Shown here piece by piece: positions 13,602 to 17,271 of a stretch of DNA of 64,000 nt. The notes below the pieces were generated by a model. The model did not search any database. It was not told the DNA's origin and worked only from the letters and a program-made list of their open reading frames with translations. Within the stretch, counting starts at the first letter, position 1; each line of letters begins with the position of its first letter. Source of the stretch: Candidatus Heimdallarchaeota archaeon (GTDB lineage: Archaea > Asgardarchaeota > Heimdallarchaeia > Heimdallarchaeales > Heimdallarchaeaceae). The stretch is from assembly GCA_021399345.1 (NCBI GenBank), contig JAAFKI010000112.1, positions 96,001 to 160,000 on the forward strand. The letters are read 5' to 3'. The position numbers and the translations under genes are program-made.

Positions 13602-13751
13602 TTAAAATGACTGAGATAAAGCAGATAAGGAGAGCAATCCAATTACTATTAAAACACATATGGAGATAGCATAAACTAGAAACATACCAAAATAGGATCT
13701 TGCTTTTTCCATTCTAGCTTTTCTTTTTATCTGATTAATATTTGACATCAT
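13602..13751 (-). CDS. 49-aa basic + single-TM microprotein (operon A, last gene)
   Basis: MMSNINQIKRKARMEKARSYFGMFLVYAISICVLIVIGLLSLSALSQSF; GAGGTGA RBS; same length as, and homologous to, 15563..15712. Confidence 0.8.
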   Translation of the reverse strand: MMSNINQIKRKARMEKARSYFGMFLVYAISICVLIVIGLLSLSALSQSF

Positions 13752-13769
13752 TTTTATTTCACCTCTTTT

Positions 13770-13910
13770 GTGATCAGCTTCTTTGTACTCCACCAGAAGA
13801 GGATGGGTACTTTCCTGACCGTGCACAACTGTTTGTGGTGAAGTTGACTAATCTTGCCATGCGTCCTCTACCTAGTTATGGGGAGATGTAGGAAAGAGAA
13901 GCATGGGTGT
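13770..13910 (-). ncRNA. Putative structured 5' leader or small RNA upstream of the 49-aa gene
   Basis: Minus-strand stems ccatgc/gcatgg + ttctc/gagga + ccta/tagg, caact/agttg, ggtcag/ctgatc + gtac/gtac; G-U pairs favour minus strand; starts about 20 nt after TATATAAA (13926-13933). Confidence 0.45.
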
Positions 13911-13925
13911 TTTTTTTTCTTCGGG

Positions 13926-13934
13926 TTTATATAT
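13926..13934. promoter_or_regulatory. TATA box, possibly bidirectional, between the two structured regions
   Basis: TTTATATAT, flanked on both sides by structured GC-rich DNA starting 20-30 nt away. Confidence 0.5.
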
Positions 13935-13949
13935 GAAAGTACACATAGA

Positions 13950-14345
13950 AAGCTAGATAGTGTGCGCTTCAGCACCTGCCTGTTTCGCAACTACACAAGT
14001 GGTTGTCTCTCAGTGAACTTACAATGAAACGGGGAGCCTAGCTAGCTCTATGCTGAAGGTCCACTTACTATTCCAGAACAAAGTCTGGATGACTTCCCCT
14101 CAACGCACGTGAGGGGACCCACTTAAACGACGGTTAGAAAGCCTCTGGCAAGTTTAACCAAGTTTCATAACGTGCGTGATACAGGTATCAGGGGAGCAAG
14201 ATGAAAAACTTGCAGCACACGAACATTCATCTTAGCTCAGATCCTGATCCTTAGCAGACGAAGTGTCTGCGGTAGTGAGTGTTTCAGCAAGAAACAATCA
14301 GCGCGATAGAGATCAACCAGATAGAAGGTTGATCAAGATATAATC
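13950..14345 (+). ncRNA. Large (~400 nt) structured non-coding RNA of unknown class
   Basis: No ORF; about 45-50% GC by hand count in an AT-rich window; 8 or more stems, 2-3 long-range/pseudoknot pairings; G-U pairs favour the + strand. Confidence 0.65.
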
Positions 14346-14399
14346 ATAAATGCAAGAAGAATAAGAAGAGGAAAAGTGGTTAAATCACTTCTCTAAATC

Positions 14400-14543
14400 T
14401 TATAGATATCTTACTGCTACTAGAGCTCCTCCAAAAACTACACCAAGAGCATATAGAAATACTGGCAGAGCGATTCGGAGAATTCTCCAGAGATGTACAA
14501 CTGGTCTTTCAATTTTATAGATCCATTGTGGTCTGTTTATCAT
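14400..14543 (-). CDS. 47-aa single-TM microprotein (operon A), not in the ORF track
   Basis: MINRPQWIYKIERPVVHLWRILRIALPVFLYALGVVFGGALVAVRYL; GGAGGTGAAAAAGA-ATG identical to the RBS of 16205; RP..L.RIL...LP shared with the N-terminus of 15789..16205. Confidence 0.8.
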   Translation of the reverse strand: MINRPQWIYKIERPVVHLWRILRIALPVFLYALGVVFGGALVAVRYL

Positions 14544-14589: not shown

Positions 14590-14736
14590 TTACCCTGCAA
14601 GAGGGTATTGCTGAAAAGCTAAACTTAAACGAGCTTTAGATCTGAGGGCGCGACGAGCTTTCTTGAGCTGCTTTAACTCCTTTTGGAGTCCCCTAACCTT
14701 TTGATCCAACAAGTTTGAAACTTCATCATGGTTCAT
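14590..14736 (-). CDS. 48-aa basic coiled-coil microprotein (operon A, first gene), not in the ORF track
   Basis: MNHDEVSNLLDQKVRGLQKELKQLKKARRALRSKARLSLAFQQYPLAG; AGGTGA RBS; paralog of 16644..16790. Confidence 0.85.
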   Translation of the reverse strand: MNHDEVSNLLDQKVRGLQKELKQLKKARRALRSKARLSLAFQQYPLAG

Positions 14737-14763
14737 TTTTTTTCACCTTGTGAATTCTTTCAC

Positions 14764-14977
14764 ATGTAGGACTTGTTGCGACATCATATATAAGGGGCTT
14801 TGAGTAGGAAAATGTTGTCACAAAGAAAAAGGCTAATGTCGGACTATGTGCGACATCTTAAACATATGTGTAAAGGCTTGCACACACGCAATTCACCTAT
14901 TTAGAAACGTTAAACAACAGTTAAAGGGCTTTTCAGATTTGCGGTAAAAATTACCTATAATATTAATAAGATGTCGC
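14764..14977 (-). promoter_or_regulatory. Operon A promoter with type-A operators ATGT(C/A)GGA-N5-TGCGACAT
   Basis: atgtaggacttgttgcgacat 14764-14784 next to TATA 14786-14793; atgtcggactatgtgcgacat 14836-14856; half-site gatgtcgc 14970-14977. Confidence 0.7.
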
Positions 14978-15017
14978 CTTTAAGACAACTTGAAAGAACA
15001 AAAAAAAGATTATAAAA

Positions 15018-15458
15018 CTACCCTATTCGATCAGTGGAATCAGCTTTAGATTTTGCCTTAGATGAGGAAGAGGCTACAATCTCTGAAACCTCAGGATAAG
15101 TGGTAACTGTAACTGCTTCAACTTCTTGATCTGTCTCTACTCCAATCTTATGAAGTGCCTTAACACGTTTATCTGTTAAGAAGAAGTCAGCCATTTTAAT
15201 CCAACTAGTAGTCACCAAAACAGGGAAACTATTAAAATCTAATGCACAATTATGGGTATCTTCAGTTAAATCTTGTATTGTATCAATAGCTCCACATTTC
15301 AAACATATTCTTAAGCGAGAAGATTTTTTGTATAAATCATTCATTGTTTCCTGATACAAATGTAAGCCTTGATTAAGCGGAGCATCCCATAAGTCAATAG
15401 CAAAGTGTTTTGCTCGGGATCGAATTACTTTCTTTTTTGCATTAGACATATCTGCCAT
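15018..15458 (-). CDS. CxxC...HxC family paralog 4
   Basis: MADMSNAKK start (GAGGA RBS; alternative ATG 15470); KSSRLRICLKCG...THNC...PVLVTTSWIKMADFF. Confidence 0.85.
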   Translation of the reverse strand: MADMSNAKKKVIRSRAKHFAIDLWDAPLNQGLHLYQETMNDLYKKSSRLRICLKCGAIDTIQDLTEDTHNCALDFNSFPVLVTTSWIKMADFFLTDKRVKALHKIGVETDQEVEAVTVTTYPEVSEIVASSSSKAKSKADSTDRIG

Positions 15459-15468
15459 TTGTATCCTC

Positions 15469-15498
15469 ATGTATTATTAAGTCCTACATCATTTAAAG
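15469..15498 (-). promoter_or_regulatory. Promoter of paralog 4: TTTAAAT followed by a type-A operator
   Basis: Minus strand ctttaaat-g-ATGTAGGACTTaataaTACAT; first 11 nt identical to the 14764 operator. Confidence 0.65.
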
Positions 15499-15562
15499 TT
15501 TGTCCCTTTGGCACAAATTTCCTATTCTTGGTTAAAGTATTAAATTTATAAAAAAAGAGAGC

Positions 15563-15712
15563 TTAAGATAAGTTTGCTAGAGATAAAAATGCTACTACAA
15601 ACAAAGCAACTGAAAACACTATGAGTATTGTATACCCCAGGAGTGTTCCTACGTTTGTTCTTGTTTTTTCTATCCACATTTTTCTTCTAGTGTTATTTAC
15701 GTTTTTAGCCAT
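15563..15712 (-). CDS. 49-aa basic + single-TM microprotein (operon B, last gene), not in the ORF track
   Basis: MAKNVNNTRRKMWIEKTRTNVGTLLGYTILIVFSVALFVVAFLSLANLS; GAGGTGG RBS; homologous to 13602..13751. Confidence 0.8.
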   Translation of the reverse strand: MAKNVNNTRRKMWIEKTRTNVGTLLGYTILIVFSVALFVVAFLSLANLS

Positions 15713-15788
15713 TTATACCACCTCGGTTTTGTTTCTAAAAAAATTCGAAAGAAGAAAATGATTTTGATCACTTTCTTCCTCGTTACAA

Positions 15789-16205
15789 TTATCTAACTAC
15801 ATATATGTCAGCATTTGTTTTAGTAGACCTAACTAAAACACATTCTACACCATCAACTATAGATATTCTAGTTAATTCCTCAGTCACATCATCAACTGCA
15901 TCTAATCTAACTAAATCAACAACAGCTGTGTTACCTAAAGCTGCTCTAACCACATATATATCAGCATAATTAATCTCATTAGTTCTGAGTACTTCAATTG
16001 CAGCATTATCTACTGAAGCAATTATCACATATTCAGAGTAATTTTCATTTGCAGCTACAACATTATTATAGGATAAGTTTATACTGGCTAGAGATACAAT
16101 CAAAGCTACGATCAATGGTAGAGATACTAATAATATTCTAGTTAGGTTAATTTCAGGTCTAGTAAAATTTAGTCGAGCTAATAATTCTTTAACAGATCTT
16201 TTCAT
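15789..16205 (-). CDS. Single-TM protein followed by about six 13-residue beta-type repeats (operon B)
   Basis: TM LTRILLVSLPLIVALIVSLA; repeats end in IEVLR, IYVVR, VDLVR, EELTR, CVLVR, IYVVR; 39-bp DNA periodicity. Confidence 0.8.
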   Translation of the reverse strand: MKRSVKELLARLNFTRPEINLTRILLVSLPLIVALIVSLASINLSYNNVVAANENYSEYVIIASVDNAAIEVLRTNEINYADIYVVRAALGNTAVVDLVRLDAVDDVTEELTRISIVDGVECVLVRSTKTNADIYVVR

Positions 16206-16336
16206 TCTTTTTCACCTCCTAGAATTTTTCTTTTTTCTCCTGAATCTTTTTCAAGTAATTGTAAAAAATTAATGAACCCTTCATGGGCTCGGATTTGATC
16301 GTTCAGAGAGAGAGTTGTTTTAAACAGTGTATTCAC
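16202..16336 (-). CDS. Possible 44-aa microprotein (operon B)
   Basis: GTG start after GGTGA; MNTLFKTTLSLNDQIRAHEGFINFLQLLEKDSGEKRKILGGEKE; stop overlaps the next ATG (ATGA) and the ORF fills the gap. Confidence 0.5.
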   Translation of the reverse strand: MNTLFKTTLSLNDQIRAHEGFINFLQLLEKDSGEKRKILGGEKE

Positions 16337-16345
16337 CTTCACCAA

Positions 16346-16606
16346 TTAATAGTAAAGCGACCCAAACAGGAGCAATTTTTGAGCAAGTGCTTTGTCCTTA
16401 GCCTTTCTCACTTTGTTCTCTATGCTTTCCCTGGAAATCTCTTTATCAGGTCGGGACTTTTTGTTATCGCGATCAGATAATCCTTCCATAAGTTGCTTGA
16501 TGAAAGAATAATAGAGATCCTCATCAATAAATTCAAAATCATACAAAACTTTCATATTGTCAATTACTATTTGGCGCACTGTTTCTACTTGAACTTTGGA
16601 TGCCAT
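16346..16606 (-). CDS. 86-aa hypothetical protein (operon B)
   Basis: GAGGTGA RBS; acidic/aromatic N-half, basic helical C-half. Confidence 0.75.
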   Translation of the reverse strand: MASKVQVETVRQIVIDNMKVLYDFEFIDEDLYYSFIKQLMEGLSDRDNKKSRPDKEISRESIENKVRKAKDKALAQKLLLFGSLYY

Positions 16607-16643
16607 TCATTTCACCTCTATTTGAAAATGGTAAGACTCTAGC

Positions 16644-16790
16644 TTACCCGTAAATCAGGTATTTCCTGATTGGAAATCTAGAACGAGCTTTTGCTCTTCT
16701 AGTGCGACGAGCTCTTTTGAGCTTATTCAACTCCTTGCGGAGTGCCTTAATCTTTCGGTCCAAAATTATACTTACTTCTTGTTTATACAT
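16644..16790 (-). CDS. 48-aa highly basic coiled-coil microprotein (operon B), not in the ORF track
   Basis: MYKQEVSIILDRKIKALRKELNKLKRARRTRRAKARSRFPIRKYLIYG; GAGGTG RBS; same length and DNA-level similarity to 14590..14736. Confidence 0.85.
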   Translation of the reverse strand: MYKQEVSIILDRKIKALRKELNKLKRARRTRRAKARSRFPIRKYLIYG

Positions 16791-16801
16791 TTCTTTACAC
16801 C

Positions 16802-16990
16802 TCAAATGTTTGCAAATCTCCTCAGGTTCAGGTTAGAGTAGAAGCTAATGGTTGCAGTCAGGTATTGCTCATAGATATCCAAGTTCTTGTCTGAATATCG
16901 GTTGGATAGAGTTTTCATGAGTTTATTGAGATCCTCGTAAAGTCTTCGAACCTCGGGATCCAGCAGTTTTTTTATTTCGTTTTTGTTCAT
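16802..16990 (-). CDS. 62-aa helical microprotein (operon B, first gene), distant paralog of the 48-aa proteins
   Basis: MNKNEIKKLLDPEVRRLYEDLNKL aligns with MNHDEVSNLLDQKVRGLQKELKQL; AGGTG RBS. Confidence 0.75.
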   Translation of the reverse strand: MNKNEIKKLLDPEVRRLYEDLNKLMKTLSNRYSDKNLDIYEQYLTATISFYSNLNLRRFANI

Positions 16991-17016: not shown

Positions 17017-17271
17017 TTACAGCATTGTGCAGTAACCTATTTAAGCATCGTTGTGCAGTAATAAATTACCGCATTTTGCAGTAATAAAAGAAATATTATT
17101 AAAAACGACAAAATGACCATATAGGCGATATTTATGCTTATGAACTCGTATAACCCCTTCAATAAATGCCATAAATAGGGGCAAATATTTCCGCTTAAGT
17201 GATTTTATTTGCAGTAATAATATGACTTTGGGAAATTATTACCTTGAGATATACATATATATATTACTGCA
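17017..17271. promoter_or_regulatory. Divergent promoter region with five TGCAGTAA(TA) type-B operator elements
   Basis: TTACaGCA-ttg-TGCAGTAA 17017-17035 next to TATA 17038-17044; TGCAGTAATA at 17054; TTACcGCA-ttt-TGCAGTAA from 17066; TGCAGTAATA at 17210; inverted TATTACTGCA 17262-17271 just after the TATA run of paralog 5. Confidence 0.8.

What the first reader, a model, noticed from the sequence alone, without database searches (positions are those of the whole stretch)
14590..16990. Three paralogous coiled-coil microproteins, two with protamine-like basic tails
14590-14736 and 16644-16790 (both 48 aa, unannotated) share E-V-S-x-x-L-D-x-K-x-x-x-L-x-K-E-L-x-x-L-K-x-ARR-x-x-R-x-KAR...Y...G-stop, with visible DNA similarity (gcgacgagct, aactcctt, ttaccc). 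The 62-aa ORF 16802-16990 shares only the N-terminal heptad helix and has a non-basic tail. Inference: dimerising nucleic-acid binders resembling an inverted bZIP, with the 62-aa protein as a possible heterodimer partner or antagonist. They could bind the neighbouring RNA or condense DNA.
Basis: partly seen in the sequence, partly recalled or inferred. Interest (0 to 1): 0.7.

Follow-up and report, generated by a model that had tools for sequence, protein, structure and literature searches.

The report
Basic-zipper microproteins of a Heimdall archaeon
Three tiny genes (48, 48 and 62 codons) in a Heimdall-group Asgard archaeon are real, selected members of a lineage-restricted family of leucine-zipper peptides, two with arginine-rich tails; they sit in small operons with membrane peptides beside an orphan zinc-protein gene, and their function is still untested.

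Summary
All three ORFs lie on the minus strand at the stated coordinates, each behind an AAGGTG/GAGGTG ribosome-binding site. A and B are 46% identical without gaps. C shares only the N-terminal helix (hhalign probability 95.6%). They are kept open in more than 15 species and are under purifying selection (median dN/dS 0.29, 0.56 and 0.31). They are not unannotated: the exact sequences are already in NCBI nr, where close relatives are named 'hypothetical protein'.

The family is an orphan. A profile search of 1.84 billion proteins found about 30 small relatives and nothing of known function. It was found in 20 of 24 genomes of one genus and 2 of 2 of a sister genus, and in none of 57 other genomes of the class.

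AlphaFold2 gives one helix (residues 3-43). Leu10, Leu17 and Leu24 form a heptad seam, followed by a uniformly basic Arg-rich stretch.

My best reading, at low confidence, is a parallel zipper dimer with Arg-rich arms that bind nucleic acid non-specifically. C would be its arm-less partner. Promoter operators change between cassettes while the basic region stays identical, so these peptides are unlikely to read the operators.

This scan found the same system earlier on other DNA (e1-5718578).

The parts
14590..14736 (-). Microprotein A, 48 aa: zipper (L10, L17, L24, L31), then a basic stretch, ending in P-x-x-G
   Evidence: ORF. SD CACC/AAGGTG at 14744-14749. Orthologues in 9 loci, median dN/dS 0.29. 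AF2 gives a helix over residues 3-43.
16644..16790 (-). Microprotein B, 48 aa: zipper (L10, L17, L24) plus an Arg-rich stretch (KRARRTRRAKARSR), ending in G
   Evidence: ORF. The ATG at 16788-16790 is preferred over the TTG at 16805 because of the 48-aa orthologues and the SD GAGGTG at 16798-16803. Median dN/dS 0.56.
16802..16990 (-). Microprotein C, 62 aa: same N-terminal zipper helix, non-basic tail; always directly upstream of a B-type gene
   Evidence: ORF. Its stop codon (16802-16804) overlaps the SD of B. hhalign against the A/B family gives probability 95.6%. Median dN/dS 0.31. The C-B tandem is seen in 14 loci.
16346..16606 (-). p86, an orphan 86-aa helical protein, third gene of operon B
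   Evidence: Follows the B-type gene in 10 of the 15 C-B/AB cassettes examined. All relatives found are unnamed or called 'hypothetical protein'. The AF2 model is poor, pLDDT 60.
15789..16205 (-). TM138, a single-pass membrane protein of operon B; its N-terminal part is paralogous to TM47
   Evidence: Alignment A12 shows the shared L-x-R-x-L motif before the TM segment. Synteny.
15563..15712 (-). TM49, a 49-aa tail-anchored membrane peptide at the end of operon B; paralogue of the peptide at 13602-13751
   Evidence: ORF. Orthologues are 65-100% identical.
14400..14543 (-). TM47, a 47-aa membrane peptide, second gene of operon A
   Evidence: ORF. Conserved immediately after A in every A cassette examined. 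Family alignment.
13602..13751 (-). 49-aa tail-anchored membrane peptide of cassette A (start at the internal ATG, behind an AGAGGTG SD)
   Evidence: ORF 13602-13826. The start was placed by alignment with relatives.
15018..15470 (-). Zn3, an orphan CxxC...HxC protein just upstream of operon A
   Evidence: Paralogue alignment A2. Synteny.
17300..17698 (+). Zn4, an orphan CxxC...HxC protein divergent from operon B
   Evidence: A divergent Zn gene accompanies the C-AB operon in every species examined.
17017..17045 (-). Operon B promoter: TATA-like box (17037-17045) directly followed by the palindromic operator TTACTGCA-N3-TGCTGTAA (17017-17035)
   Evidence: Read. The operator class is conserved in close relatives and replaced in others.
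14764..14794 (-). Operon A promoter: TATA-like box (14785-14794) directly followed by the operator ATGTCGCA-N5-TCCTACAT (14764-14784)
   Evidence: Read.
14943..14955 (.). 13-bp palindrome GGTAA-N3-TTACC upstream of operon A, the universal distal site of all cassettes
   Evidence: Found in all 19 cassette promoters: 30 hits against 1.2 in shuffles. It is the only intergenic exact match in the 3.27-Mb genome.

Best explanation
Shown: A, B and C are translated, selectively maintained paralogues of an orphan family restricted to one family-level clade of Heimdall-group Asgard archaea. They are chromosomal and vertically inherited. They form the first genes of small operons that also encode single-pass membrane peptides, next to a gene of an orphan zinc-protein family.

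Inferred mechanism: residues about 6-27 form a short parallel two-stranded leucine zipper. In A and B the same helix continues into an Arg-rich, non-amphipathic stretch (consensus KRARRxRRAKA, residues 25-38). A dimer would therefore present two basic arms at the C-terminal end of the zipper, the reverse of bZIP geometry. These arms would bind nucleic acid, RNA more likely than DNA, mainly through the phosphate backbone and without reading the cassette-specific operators.

C keeps the zipper but has no basic arm. It is probably made in step with B, because its stop codon overlaps B's ribosome-binding site. It would pair with B or A to give a one-armed dimer, or titrate them. The likely role is post-transcriptional or structural control of the co-encoded membrane peptides. 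The operators would be read by the zinc proteins.
For: Reality and selection:
- Good SD sites precede all three genes.
- The 48-aa and 62-aa frames are kept, with the same stop position, in more than 15 species although dS is near or past saturation. Median dN/dS is 0.29, 0.56 and 0.31.
- The locus is syntenic between the DEAD-box helicase gene and the GlcD/ETF genes.

Coiled coil:
- L10, L17, L24 and E20 are invariant, and L21, D11 and A27 nearly so, across 22-30 family members.
- The g-e' pair E20-K/R25 is conserved.
- AF2 gives a single helix over residues 3-43, with pLDDT 97 for residues 11-30.
- The best PDB sequence matches are designed dimeric or trimeric coiled coils.

Basic arm:
- B carries +14.5 net charge. 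Over residues 21-42 its mean hydrophobicity is about -1.05 and its hydrophobic moment only 0.18-0.32, so it is not a membrane-type amphipathic helix.
- The segment from E20 to K34 is the best-conserved part of the family.

Not the operator reader:
- The window's B and the G001 B orthologue have an identical RARRTRRAKARSR stretch. Their TATA-proximal operators belong to different classes: TTRCTGCA-N3-TGCWGTAA against ATGTCATC-N6-ATKACAT.

Feasibility and analogy:
- reverseGCN4, with its basic region C-terminal to the zipper, binds DNA with high affinity (PMC3783159).
- The Arg-rich small protein CcaF1 (DUF1127) binds RNA and acts on RNAs of its own operon (PMC12501420).
Against: - There is no direct evidence of dimerisation or of nucleic-acid binding. 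No multimer prediction could be run.
- Three heptads make a short zipper.
- A preference of C for pairing with B is not conserved in the e/g charges.
- The only conserved non-coding element nearby is absent from the window's cassette B and from the distant single-cassette species, so it cannot be the universal target. Its predicted structure shows no compensatory changes.
- Every cassette couples the peptides to membrane peptides. A family branch with the same basic stretch precedes an MFS transporter gene. This fits a membrane or protein partner equally well.
- In G021 the counterpart carries a Lys-rich tail with spaced hydrophobic residues rather than an Arg-rich one.
- Some DUF1127 proteins act through membrane proteins, not RNA.
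Confidence: 0.35

Rival explanations
1. Membrane-proximal adaptor. The zipper peptides assemble with the co-encoded single-pass membrane peptides, or with the MFS transporter in the related branch. The polybasic stretch and the hydrophobic or aromatic C-terminus sit on anionic lipid headgroups or on a protein partner. The peptides would then regulate or scaffold a small membrane complex rather than bind nucleic acid.
For: Every cassette pairs an A/B-type gene with an 'L-x-R-x-L plus TM' peptide. The minimal version in G021 is just a divergent Zn gene, one zipper-basic peptide and one TM peptide. In the related 55-aa branch, the peptide pair precedes an MFS transporter (Pfam MFS_1, E 9e-35). 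The C-terminal motif is conserved (Pro at -4, hydrophobic at -3, Gly last), which suggests a specific protein contact. There is a precedent: the DUF1127 small Arg-rich proteins SDP and YjiS act via the membrane kinase PhoR or at the membrane (PMC12501420).
Against: The basic stretch of B has no hydrophobic face (hydrophobic moment 0.18-0.32). The cytosolic parts of the TM peptides are themselves basic and only about 20 residues long, so neither charge complementarity nor a long coiled coil is evident. The 42-46-aa branch sits with soluble coiled-coil and wHTH proteins, not with membrane proteins.
Confidence: 0.25
2. Sequence-specific transcription factor of 'inverted bZIP' type. A/B dimers read a palindromic DNA site in their own promoters and autoregulate the operon, and C acts as an Id-like or LITTLE-ZIPPER-like inhibitor.
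For: The architecture is the mirror image of bZIP. reverseGCN4 shows that this arrangement can bind DNA specifically. All cassette promoters carry palindromes, including an invariant 13-bp site, GGYAA-N3-TTRCC, that matches the near-invariance of the basic stretch. Archaea have a leucine-zipper-type activator, GvpE (PMC6737238).
Against: The TATA-proximal operators fall into three classes that do not co-vary with the basic stretch. The invariant palindrome is absent from promoters of the 55-aa branch, which carries the same KRARRARRAKA stretch but no Zn gene, so the site tracks the Zn cassettes and not the peptides. Operator half-sites are 13 bp centre to centre, far wider than a basic-zipper fork usually spans. 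The bZIP signature Asn is absent, and no bZIP Pfam model matches even at E up to 1.
Confidence: 0.1
3. Exported cationic peptides: a leaderless, two-peptide archaeocin-like system, with the small TM proteins providing immunity or export.
For: The gene order recalls two-peptide bacteriocin loci: a dedicated regulator, two adjacent small cationic helical peptides, small TM proteins, and in one branch an MFS exporter-type gene.
Against: There is no signal or leader sequence. The peptides are not amphipathic in their cationic half. The locus is a vertically inherited core-like locus and not a variable island. No hit in PHROGs, PADLOC or NCBIfam.
Confidence: 0.05
4. The ORFs are not translated, and their conservation reflects RNA or DNA elements.
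For: The ORFs are very short, and there is no proteomic evidence.
Against: dN/dS is below 1, with frame and stop position kept across saturated synonymous divergence. Each ORF has an SD site at the right distance. The conservation pattern is at the amino-acid level, with heptad leucines and Arg/Lys exchanges.
Confidence: 0.03

Closest known systems
Eukaryotic bZIP domain (GCN4, C/EBP, Maf)
   Same: One continuous helix combines a leucine heptad zipper with an adjoining basic stretch. A parallel dimer is expected, and a g-e' salt bridge is present.
   Different: The order is reversed, with the zipper N-terminal and the basic stretch C-terminal. There are only about three heptads. The basic region has no invariant Asn or N-x7-R signature. 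No Pfam bZIP model matches. The whole protein is 48 aa. There is no evidence of specific DNA binding.
[quoted passage not shown] 2001, cited in PMC3783159)
   Same: The same zipper-then-basic topology. It shows that this topology can bind DNA tightly and specifically, to inverted half-sites.
   Different: It is an artificial construct with the GCN4 basic region. The natural peptides have a different, Ala/Arg-only basic stretch. The palindromes in their promoters do not track them.
DUF1127 small arginine-rich proteins (CcaF1, SDP1-3, YjiS) of proteobacteria
   Same: They are 47-71 aa, Arg-rich and occur as multi-copy paralogues. CcaF1 binds RNA and acts on RNAs of its own operon, while others work through a membrane protein. 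This is the same RNA-versus-membrane ambiguity as here (PMC12501420).
   Different: No sequence relationship: no Pfam DUF1127 hit. They are bacterial and have no leucine zipper.
Arginine-rich-motif RNA-binding peptides (lambda N, HIV Rev and Tat)
   Same: A short helical Arg-rich stretch with interspersed Ala, Thr or Gln (own knowledge of these motifs).
   Different: Those act as monomeric peptide segments on a defined hairpin. Here the motif hangs on a dimerising zipper, and no RNA target is identified.
GvpE, the leucine-zipper-type transcriptional activator of haloarchaeal gas-vesicle genes
   Same: An archaeal protein described as resembling a basic-region leucine zipper (Kruger et al. 1998, cited in PMC6737238).
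   Different: GvpE is about 190 aa with the usual basic-then-zipper order (own knowledge). It is unrelated in sequence and lineage.
Dominant-negative microProteins (Id, plant LITTLE ZIPPER)
   Same: C resembles a partner that keeps only the dimerisation helix and lacks the basic part (own knowledge of these families).
   Different: C is co-transcribed with B and probably translationally coupled to it, which suggests a stoichiometric partner rather than a separately regulated inhibitor. The heterodimer preference is unproven.

Membership tests
bZIP (Pfam bZIP_1, bZIP_2, bZIP_Maf) | Significant match to a bZIP profile | tested here: not met
   No bZIP family is listed for A, B or C even at E up to 1. 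The MafG match in the PDB search has E 0.08 and covers a non-homologous stretch.
bZIP (Pfam bZIP_1, bZIP_2, bZIP_Maf) | Basic region immediately N-terminal to the leucine zipper | tested here: not met
   The order is reversed: the zipper spans residues about 6-27 and the basic stretch residues 25-38.
bZIP (Pfam bZIP_1, bZIP_2, bZIP_Maf) | Invariant Asn and Arg (N-x7-R) in the basic region | tested here: not met
   The family consensus KRARRxRRAKA contains no Asn.
bZIP (Pfam bZIP_1, bZIP_2, bZIP_Maf) | Leu at every seventh position over at least 3-4 heptads in a continuous helix | tested here: met
   L10, L17 and L24 are invariant, plus L31 in the A type. AF2 gives a helix over residues 3-43.
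bZIP (Pfam bZIP_1, bZIP_2, bZIP_Maf) | Sequence-specific binding of a palindromic DNA site as a dimer | not testable with these tools
   Indirect tests are negative. The operators do not co-vary with the basic stretch, and the invariant palindrome is absent from the related branch that has the same stretch.
DUF1127 (PF06568) small Arg-rich proteins | Match to the DUF1127 profile | tested here: not met
   No such hit in Pfam at E up to 1, nor in NCBIfam.
Arginine-rich-motif RNA binders | Short helical stretch dominated by Arg | tested here: met
   B has 12 K/R among residues 23-38, and the stretch is modelled as helix.
Arginine-rich-motif RNA binders | Binding to a defined structured RNA | not testable with these tools
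   No Rfam family in the window. The nearby conserved element is not universal and shows no compensatory pairs.
Heimdall basic-zipper microprotein family (defined here) | 35-79 aa; N-terminal E-h-x-x-x-L-D followed by L17, E20, L21, L24 | tested here: met
   A, B and C all carry it. The profile recovers them at E 1e-26 to 1e-28.
Heimdall basic-zipper microprotein family (defined here) | First genes of an operon with 'L-x-R-x-L plus TM' peptides, beside a CxxC...HxC protein gene | tested here: met
   This arrangement is seen in the window and in all 18 related loci fetched around A/B/C-type hits that extend far enough to show it.

The most novel reading that the evidence does not exclude
These are a natural 'inverted bZIP' system in the archaeal lineage closest to eukaryotes. 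A zipper-then-basic microprotein would bind DNA or RNA as a dimer. A co-translated arm-less paralogue (C) would set its activity, and the pair would be tethered to or control a small membrane-peptide complex. This would be a minimal dimeric nucleic-acid-binding module that arose independently of eukaryotic bZIP.
Probability: 0.12. Interest if true: 0.7.

Novelty: new variant of a known kind. Interest (0 to 1): 0.45.

Why it matters
Small proteins under 70 residues are largely unexplored in archaea, and almost nothing is known about them in Asgard archaea. Here a whole module of them is conserved at one chromosomal locus across a genus. The module comprises zipper peptides with and without an Arg-rich arm and two kinds of membrane peptide, under tightly organised promoters next to an orphan zinc protein.

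If the peptides dimerise and bind nucleic acid, they would be the smallest natural zipper-plus-basic-arm proteins known, and the first with the reversed order that has so far been seen only in an engineered GCN4. If they instead work on the membrane peptides, they define a new type of microprotein membrane complex. Either result is cheaply testable with synthetic peptides. The restricted distribution and unknown function limit the wider impact for now.

Tried and rejected
- Known-family searches gave nothing: Pfam, PHROGs, NCBIfam and PADLOC, PDB sequences (only designed coiled coils at E above 0.03), ESM Atlas and Rfam.
- Searches in genome contigs failed with the family alignment (no stretch conserved enough) and with B alone. 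The second scan, with the neighbouring GlcD gene, named the relatives as Candidatus Heimdallarchaeota, including AB_125.
- The p86 fold prediction was too poor (pLDDT 60) to justify a fold search.
- Operator reading by A/B was rejected: identical basic stretches go with different operator classes.
- The invariant GGYAA-N3-TTRCC palindrome as the A/B site was rejected: it is absent from the 55-aa branch promoters that have the same basic stretch.
- The neighbouring conserved non-coding element as an obligatory RNA target was rejected: there is one copy in this genome, none in the window's cassette B and none in distant species, and no compensatory covariation.
- A conserved heterodimer charge code for C:B was not found.
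- A mobile-element or viral origin was rejected because of conserved synteny between housekeeping genes.
- HbYX-like or PDZ-ligand readings of the C-termini were considered. They fit only subsets of the family, so they were dropped.
Full report
**Observation.** The minus strand carries three short ORFs: 14590-14736 (A, 48 aa), 16644-16790 (B, 48 aa from the ATG) and 16802-16990 (C, 62 aa). Each ATG lies 7-8 bases downstream of AAGGTG or GAGGTG. The stop codon of C (16802-16804) overlaps the ribosome-binding site of B (16798-16803), an arrangement typical of translational coupling.

A and B are 46% identical over all 48 residues without a gap (BLASTP E 4e-6), and their coding DNA is 66% identical. 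C aligns with them only over its first 22-45 residues. A profile-profile comparison of the C family with the A/B family nevertheless gives 95.6% probability (E 1.2e-8).

The one error is 'unannotated'. The exact sequences are in NCBI nr, and close relatives are deposited as hypothetical proteins of Candidatus Heimdallarchaeota.

**Organism and distribution.** The window is part of a 3.27-Mb, 88.6%-complete assembly with about 33% G+C. The neighbouring GlcD-like gene finds its closest relatives (72-96% identity) only in MAGs named Candidatus Heimdallarchaeota, including AB_125.

A family profile finds matches in 20 of 24 genomes of the same genus and 2 of 2 of a sister genus. It finds none in the other 57 genomes of the class that were searched; many of these genomes are incomplete. 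HMMER read all 1.84 billion representative proteins and returned 33 hits. Thirty are proteins of 35-79 aa of this same family. The other three are long generic coiled-coil proteins matched only over their heptads. No member has a known function.

**Are they genes?** Yes. At the syntenic locus the 48-aa and 62-aa frames, including the stop position, are preserved in 9 (A), 15 (B) and 14 (C) loci. This holds although synonymous divergence reaches or exceeds saturation. Median pairwise dN/dS is 0.29, 0.56 and 0.31. Substitutions respect the heptad leucines and exchange Arg for Lys.

**Anatomy.**
- Across 22-30 members, L10, L17, E20 and L24 are invariant or nearly so. D11, L21, A27, R28 and R29 are invariant or nearly so among the A/B-type members.
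- With L10 at a heptad 'd' position, the seam is V6, L10, V/I14, L17, L21, L24, plus L31 in the A type. The conserved E20 (g) faces K/R25 (e'), as expected for a parallel dimer.
- AlphaFold2 with the family alignment gives one helix from residue 3 to 43 (mean pLDDT 87, and 97 for residues 11-30). Only the last five residues are non-helical.
- The best PDB sequence matches are designed coiled-coil peptides, all with E above 0.03.
- The basic stretch (consensus KRARRxRRAKA) directly continues the zipper helix. It is uniformly polar in B: mean hydrophobicity about -1.05 and hydrophobic moment 0.18-0.32. The zipper part scores 0.6-0.7.
- B carries 18 K/R (net charge about +14.5) and A carries 11.
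- A/B-type proteins end in a conserved motif: Pro at -4, a hydrophobic residue at -3 and a C-terminal Gly.
- C has the same N-terminal helix, then a non-basic tail that is variable except for a terminal F..x-N-L-R-R patch.

**Context.** The locus lies between a DEAD-box helicase gene and GlcD/ETF genes, and it is syntenic across the genus.
- Close relatives share the window's two cassettes. Cassette B is Zn4 (divergent), then C-B-p86-(p47)-TM138-TM49. Cassette A is Zn3, then A-TM47-49-aa peptide.
- A is paralogous to B, TM47 to the N-terminus of TM138, and the two 49-aa peptides to each other.
- More distant species have a single cassette: a divergent Zn gene, then C-AB-p86-TM51.
- One species (G021) has a minimal version with a 77-aa C-like zipper carrying a Lys-rich tail, followed by one TM peptide.
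- The sister genus has helicase-Zn-GlcD with no cassette.

The system is therefore chromosomal and vertically inherited, not a mobile element. No PHROGs, PADLOC or NCBIfam family matches any component.

Two further branches of the family sit elsewhere in the genomes.
- A 42-46-aa type is also present in this genome on another contig (L004). It precedes an 81-aa coiled-coil protein and a 445-aa coiled-coil protein with a weak ArsR-type wHTH match.
- A 55-aa type carries the same KRARRARRAKA stretch. It is preceded by a 54-aa basic partner and lies between a divergent wHTH-like gene and an MFS transporter gene.

**Tests of the DNA-reading idea.** Each cassette promoter has a TATA-like box directly followed by a palindromic operator, with a second copy upstream. 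Three operator classes occur:
- ATGTCGSA-N5-TCCKACAT;
- ATGTCATC-N6-ATKACAT;
- TTRCTGCA-N3-TGCWGTAA.

The window's B and the G001 orthologue have identical basic stretches but operators of different classes. The basic stretch therefore does not determine operator specificity, and the variable Zn paralogues are the simpler candidates.

I also found a 13-bp palindrome, GGYAA-N3-TTRCC, in all 19 cassette promoters. It lies about 185-220 bp upstream of the first microprotein ATG, with 30 hits at up to 1 mismatch against 1.2 expected in shuffles. The copy at 14943-14955 is the only intergenic exact match in the whole genome. Its invariance would suit the invariant basic stretch. However, it is absent from the promoters of the 55-aa branch, which has the same stretch but no Zn gene. 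So the site tracks the Zn cassettes and not the peptides.

**Test of the 'neighbouring RNA' idea.** A strongly conserved non-coding element lies between the TM47-type gene and the 49-aa peptide gene.
- In the window it is split by an insertion of about 355 bp at 13820-14174.
- It occurs in cassette A of eight relatives and in cassette B of four.
- It occurs only once in this genome. It is missing from the window's cassette B and from the distant single-cassette species.
- RNAalifold finds one long-range helix kept through G-U pairs and no compensatory double changes.

The element cannot be the universal partner of the peptides.

**Mechanism.** What is shown: real, selected, helical, zipper-like peptides with an Arg-rich continuation, embedded in a conserved operon with membrane peptides.

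What I infer, with about 0.35 confidence, is a parallel zipper dimer whose two basic arms bind nucleic acid without operator specificity. RNA is more likely than DNA. C would be a co-translated, arm-less partner. The physical feasibility of the reversed order is shown by reverseGCN4 (PMC3783159). A functional precedent for small Arg-rich proteins acting on RNAs of their own operon is CcaF1 (PMC12501420).

The main rival (about 0.25) is a membrane-proximal adaptor for the co-encoded peptides. It is supported by the invariable genetic coupling, the conserved C-terminal motif and the MFS-linked branch. The same DUF1127 literature shows that Arg-rich microproteins can work through membrane proteins. 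An operator-reading inverted bZIP (about 0.1), an exported cationic peptide (about 0.05) and non-translation (about 0.03) are less likely, for the reasons given above.

**Comparison and novelty.** The peptides are not members of bZIP. They have no profile match, the order is reversed and the signature Asn is absent. They are not DUF1127 members either. They resemble bZIP, ARM peptides and Id-type microProteins only in principle. I rate them a new variant of a known kind: small dimerising basic-helix proteins.

An earlier follow-up of this scan on another genome (e1-5718578) reached the same general picture, and it also left the function open. My work agrees with it. It adds the family-wide searches, the selection statistics, the two negative operator tests, the universal palindrome, the extra family branches and the minimal G021 module.

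**Limits.** Most genomes searched are incomplete MAGs, so 'not found' does not mean absent.

Noticed in passing
window 14175-14399 and 13752-13819 (minus strand), split by an insertion at about 13820-14174: A strongly conserved non-coding element lies between the TM47-type gene and the 49-aa peptide gene. It has invariant blocks such as GCTGATTGTTTCTTGCTGAA and GGATCAGG...CCTGATCC. It begins after a terminator-like hairpin and a TATA-like box, so it may be a long 5' leader of the 49-aa peptide mRNA. It is present in cassettes A and B of relatives but lost from the window's cassette B.
   Followed up: partly
window 14943-14955; looser copies upstream of operon B near 17070-17250: A 13-bp palindrome, GGYAA-N3-TTRCC, occurs in all 19 cassette promoters examined, often 4 bp from an operator half-site. 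The copy at 14943-14955 is the only intergenic exact match in the 3.27-Mb genome. It probably forms a composite site for the Zn proteins.
   Followed up: partly
window 14764-14784 and 17017-17035; loci L034-L051: TATA-proximal operators fall into three sequence classes among cassettes and species, with the same placement directly after the TATA box. This is a natural series for studying how regulator and operator specificity change.
   Followed up: partly
L004:503-631 (own genome, contig C95); L052:6769-8487: A third family branch (42-46 aa, hydrophobic or aromatic C-terminus) heads an operon with an 81-aa coiled-coil protein and a 445-aa coiled-coil protein that has a weak ArsR-type wHTH match. 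It is the only branch also found in the sister genus.
   Followed up: partly
L043:4696-7319 (G020): A fourth branch consists of a 54-aa basic peptide ending in GG and a 55-aa peptide with the same KRARRARRAKA stretch, ending S-x-M or S-x-I. The pair lies between a divergent wHTH-like gene and an MFS transporter gene, and the promoter has its own palindrome, GTGAGAAC-N-GTTCTCAC.
   Followed up: partly
L099:7804-8158 (G021): At the syntenic locus there is only a 77-aa C-like zipper protein with a Lys-rich tail, plus one TM peptide, divergent from the Zn gene. This is a minimal or highly diverged form of the module.
   Followed up: no
window 15563-15712: The 49-aa tail-anchored peptide gives a weak sub-threshold match to the juxtamembrane and TM end of Synaptobrevin (PF00957, E 0.019). 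The match is probably compositional.
   Followed up: no
window 15789-16205: TM138 is much longer than its counterparts (47-53 aa) in cassette A and in other species. Its extra C-terminal part is Val/Ile-rich, and its gain coincides with loss of the conserved non-coding element downstream in the window and in G018.
   Followed up: no
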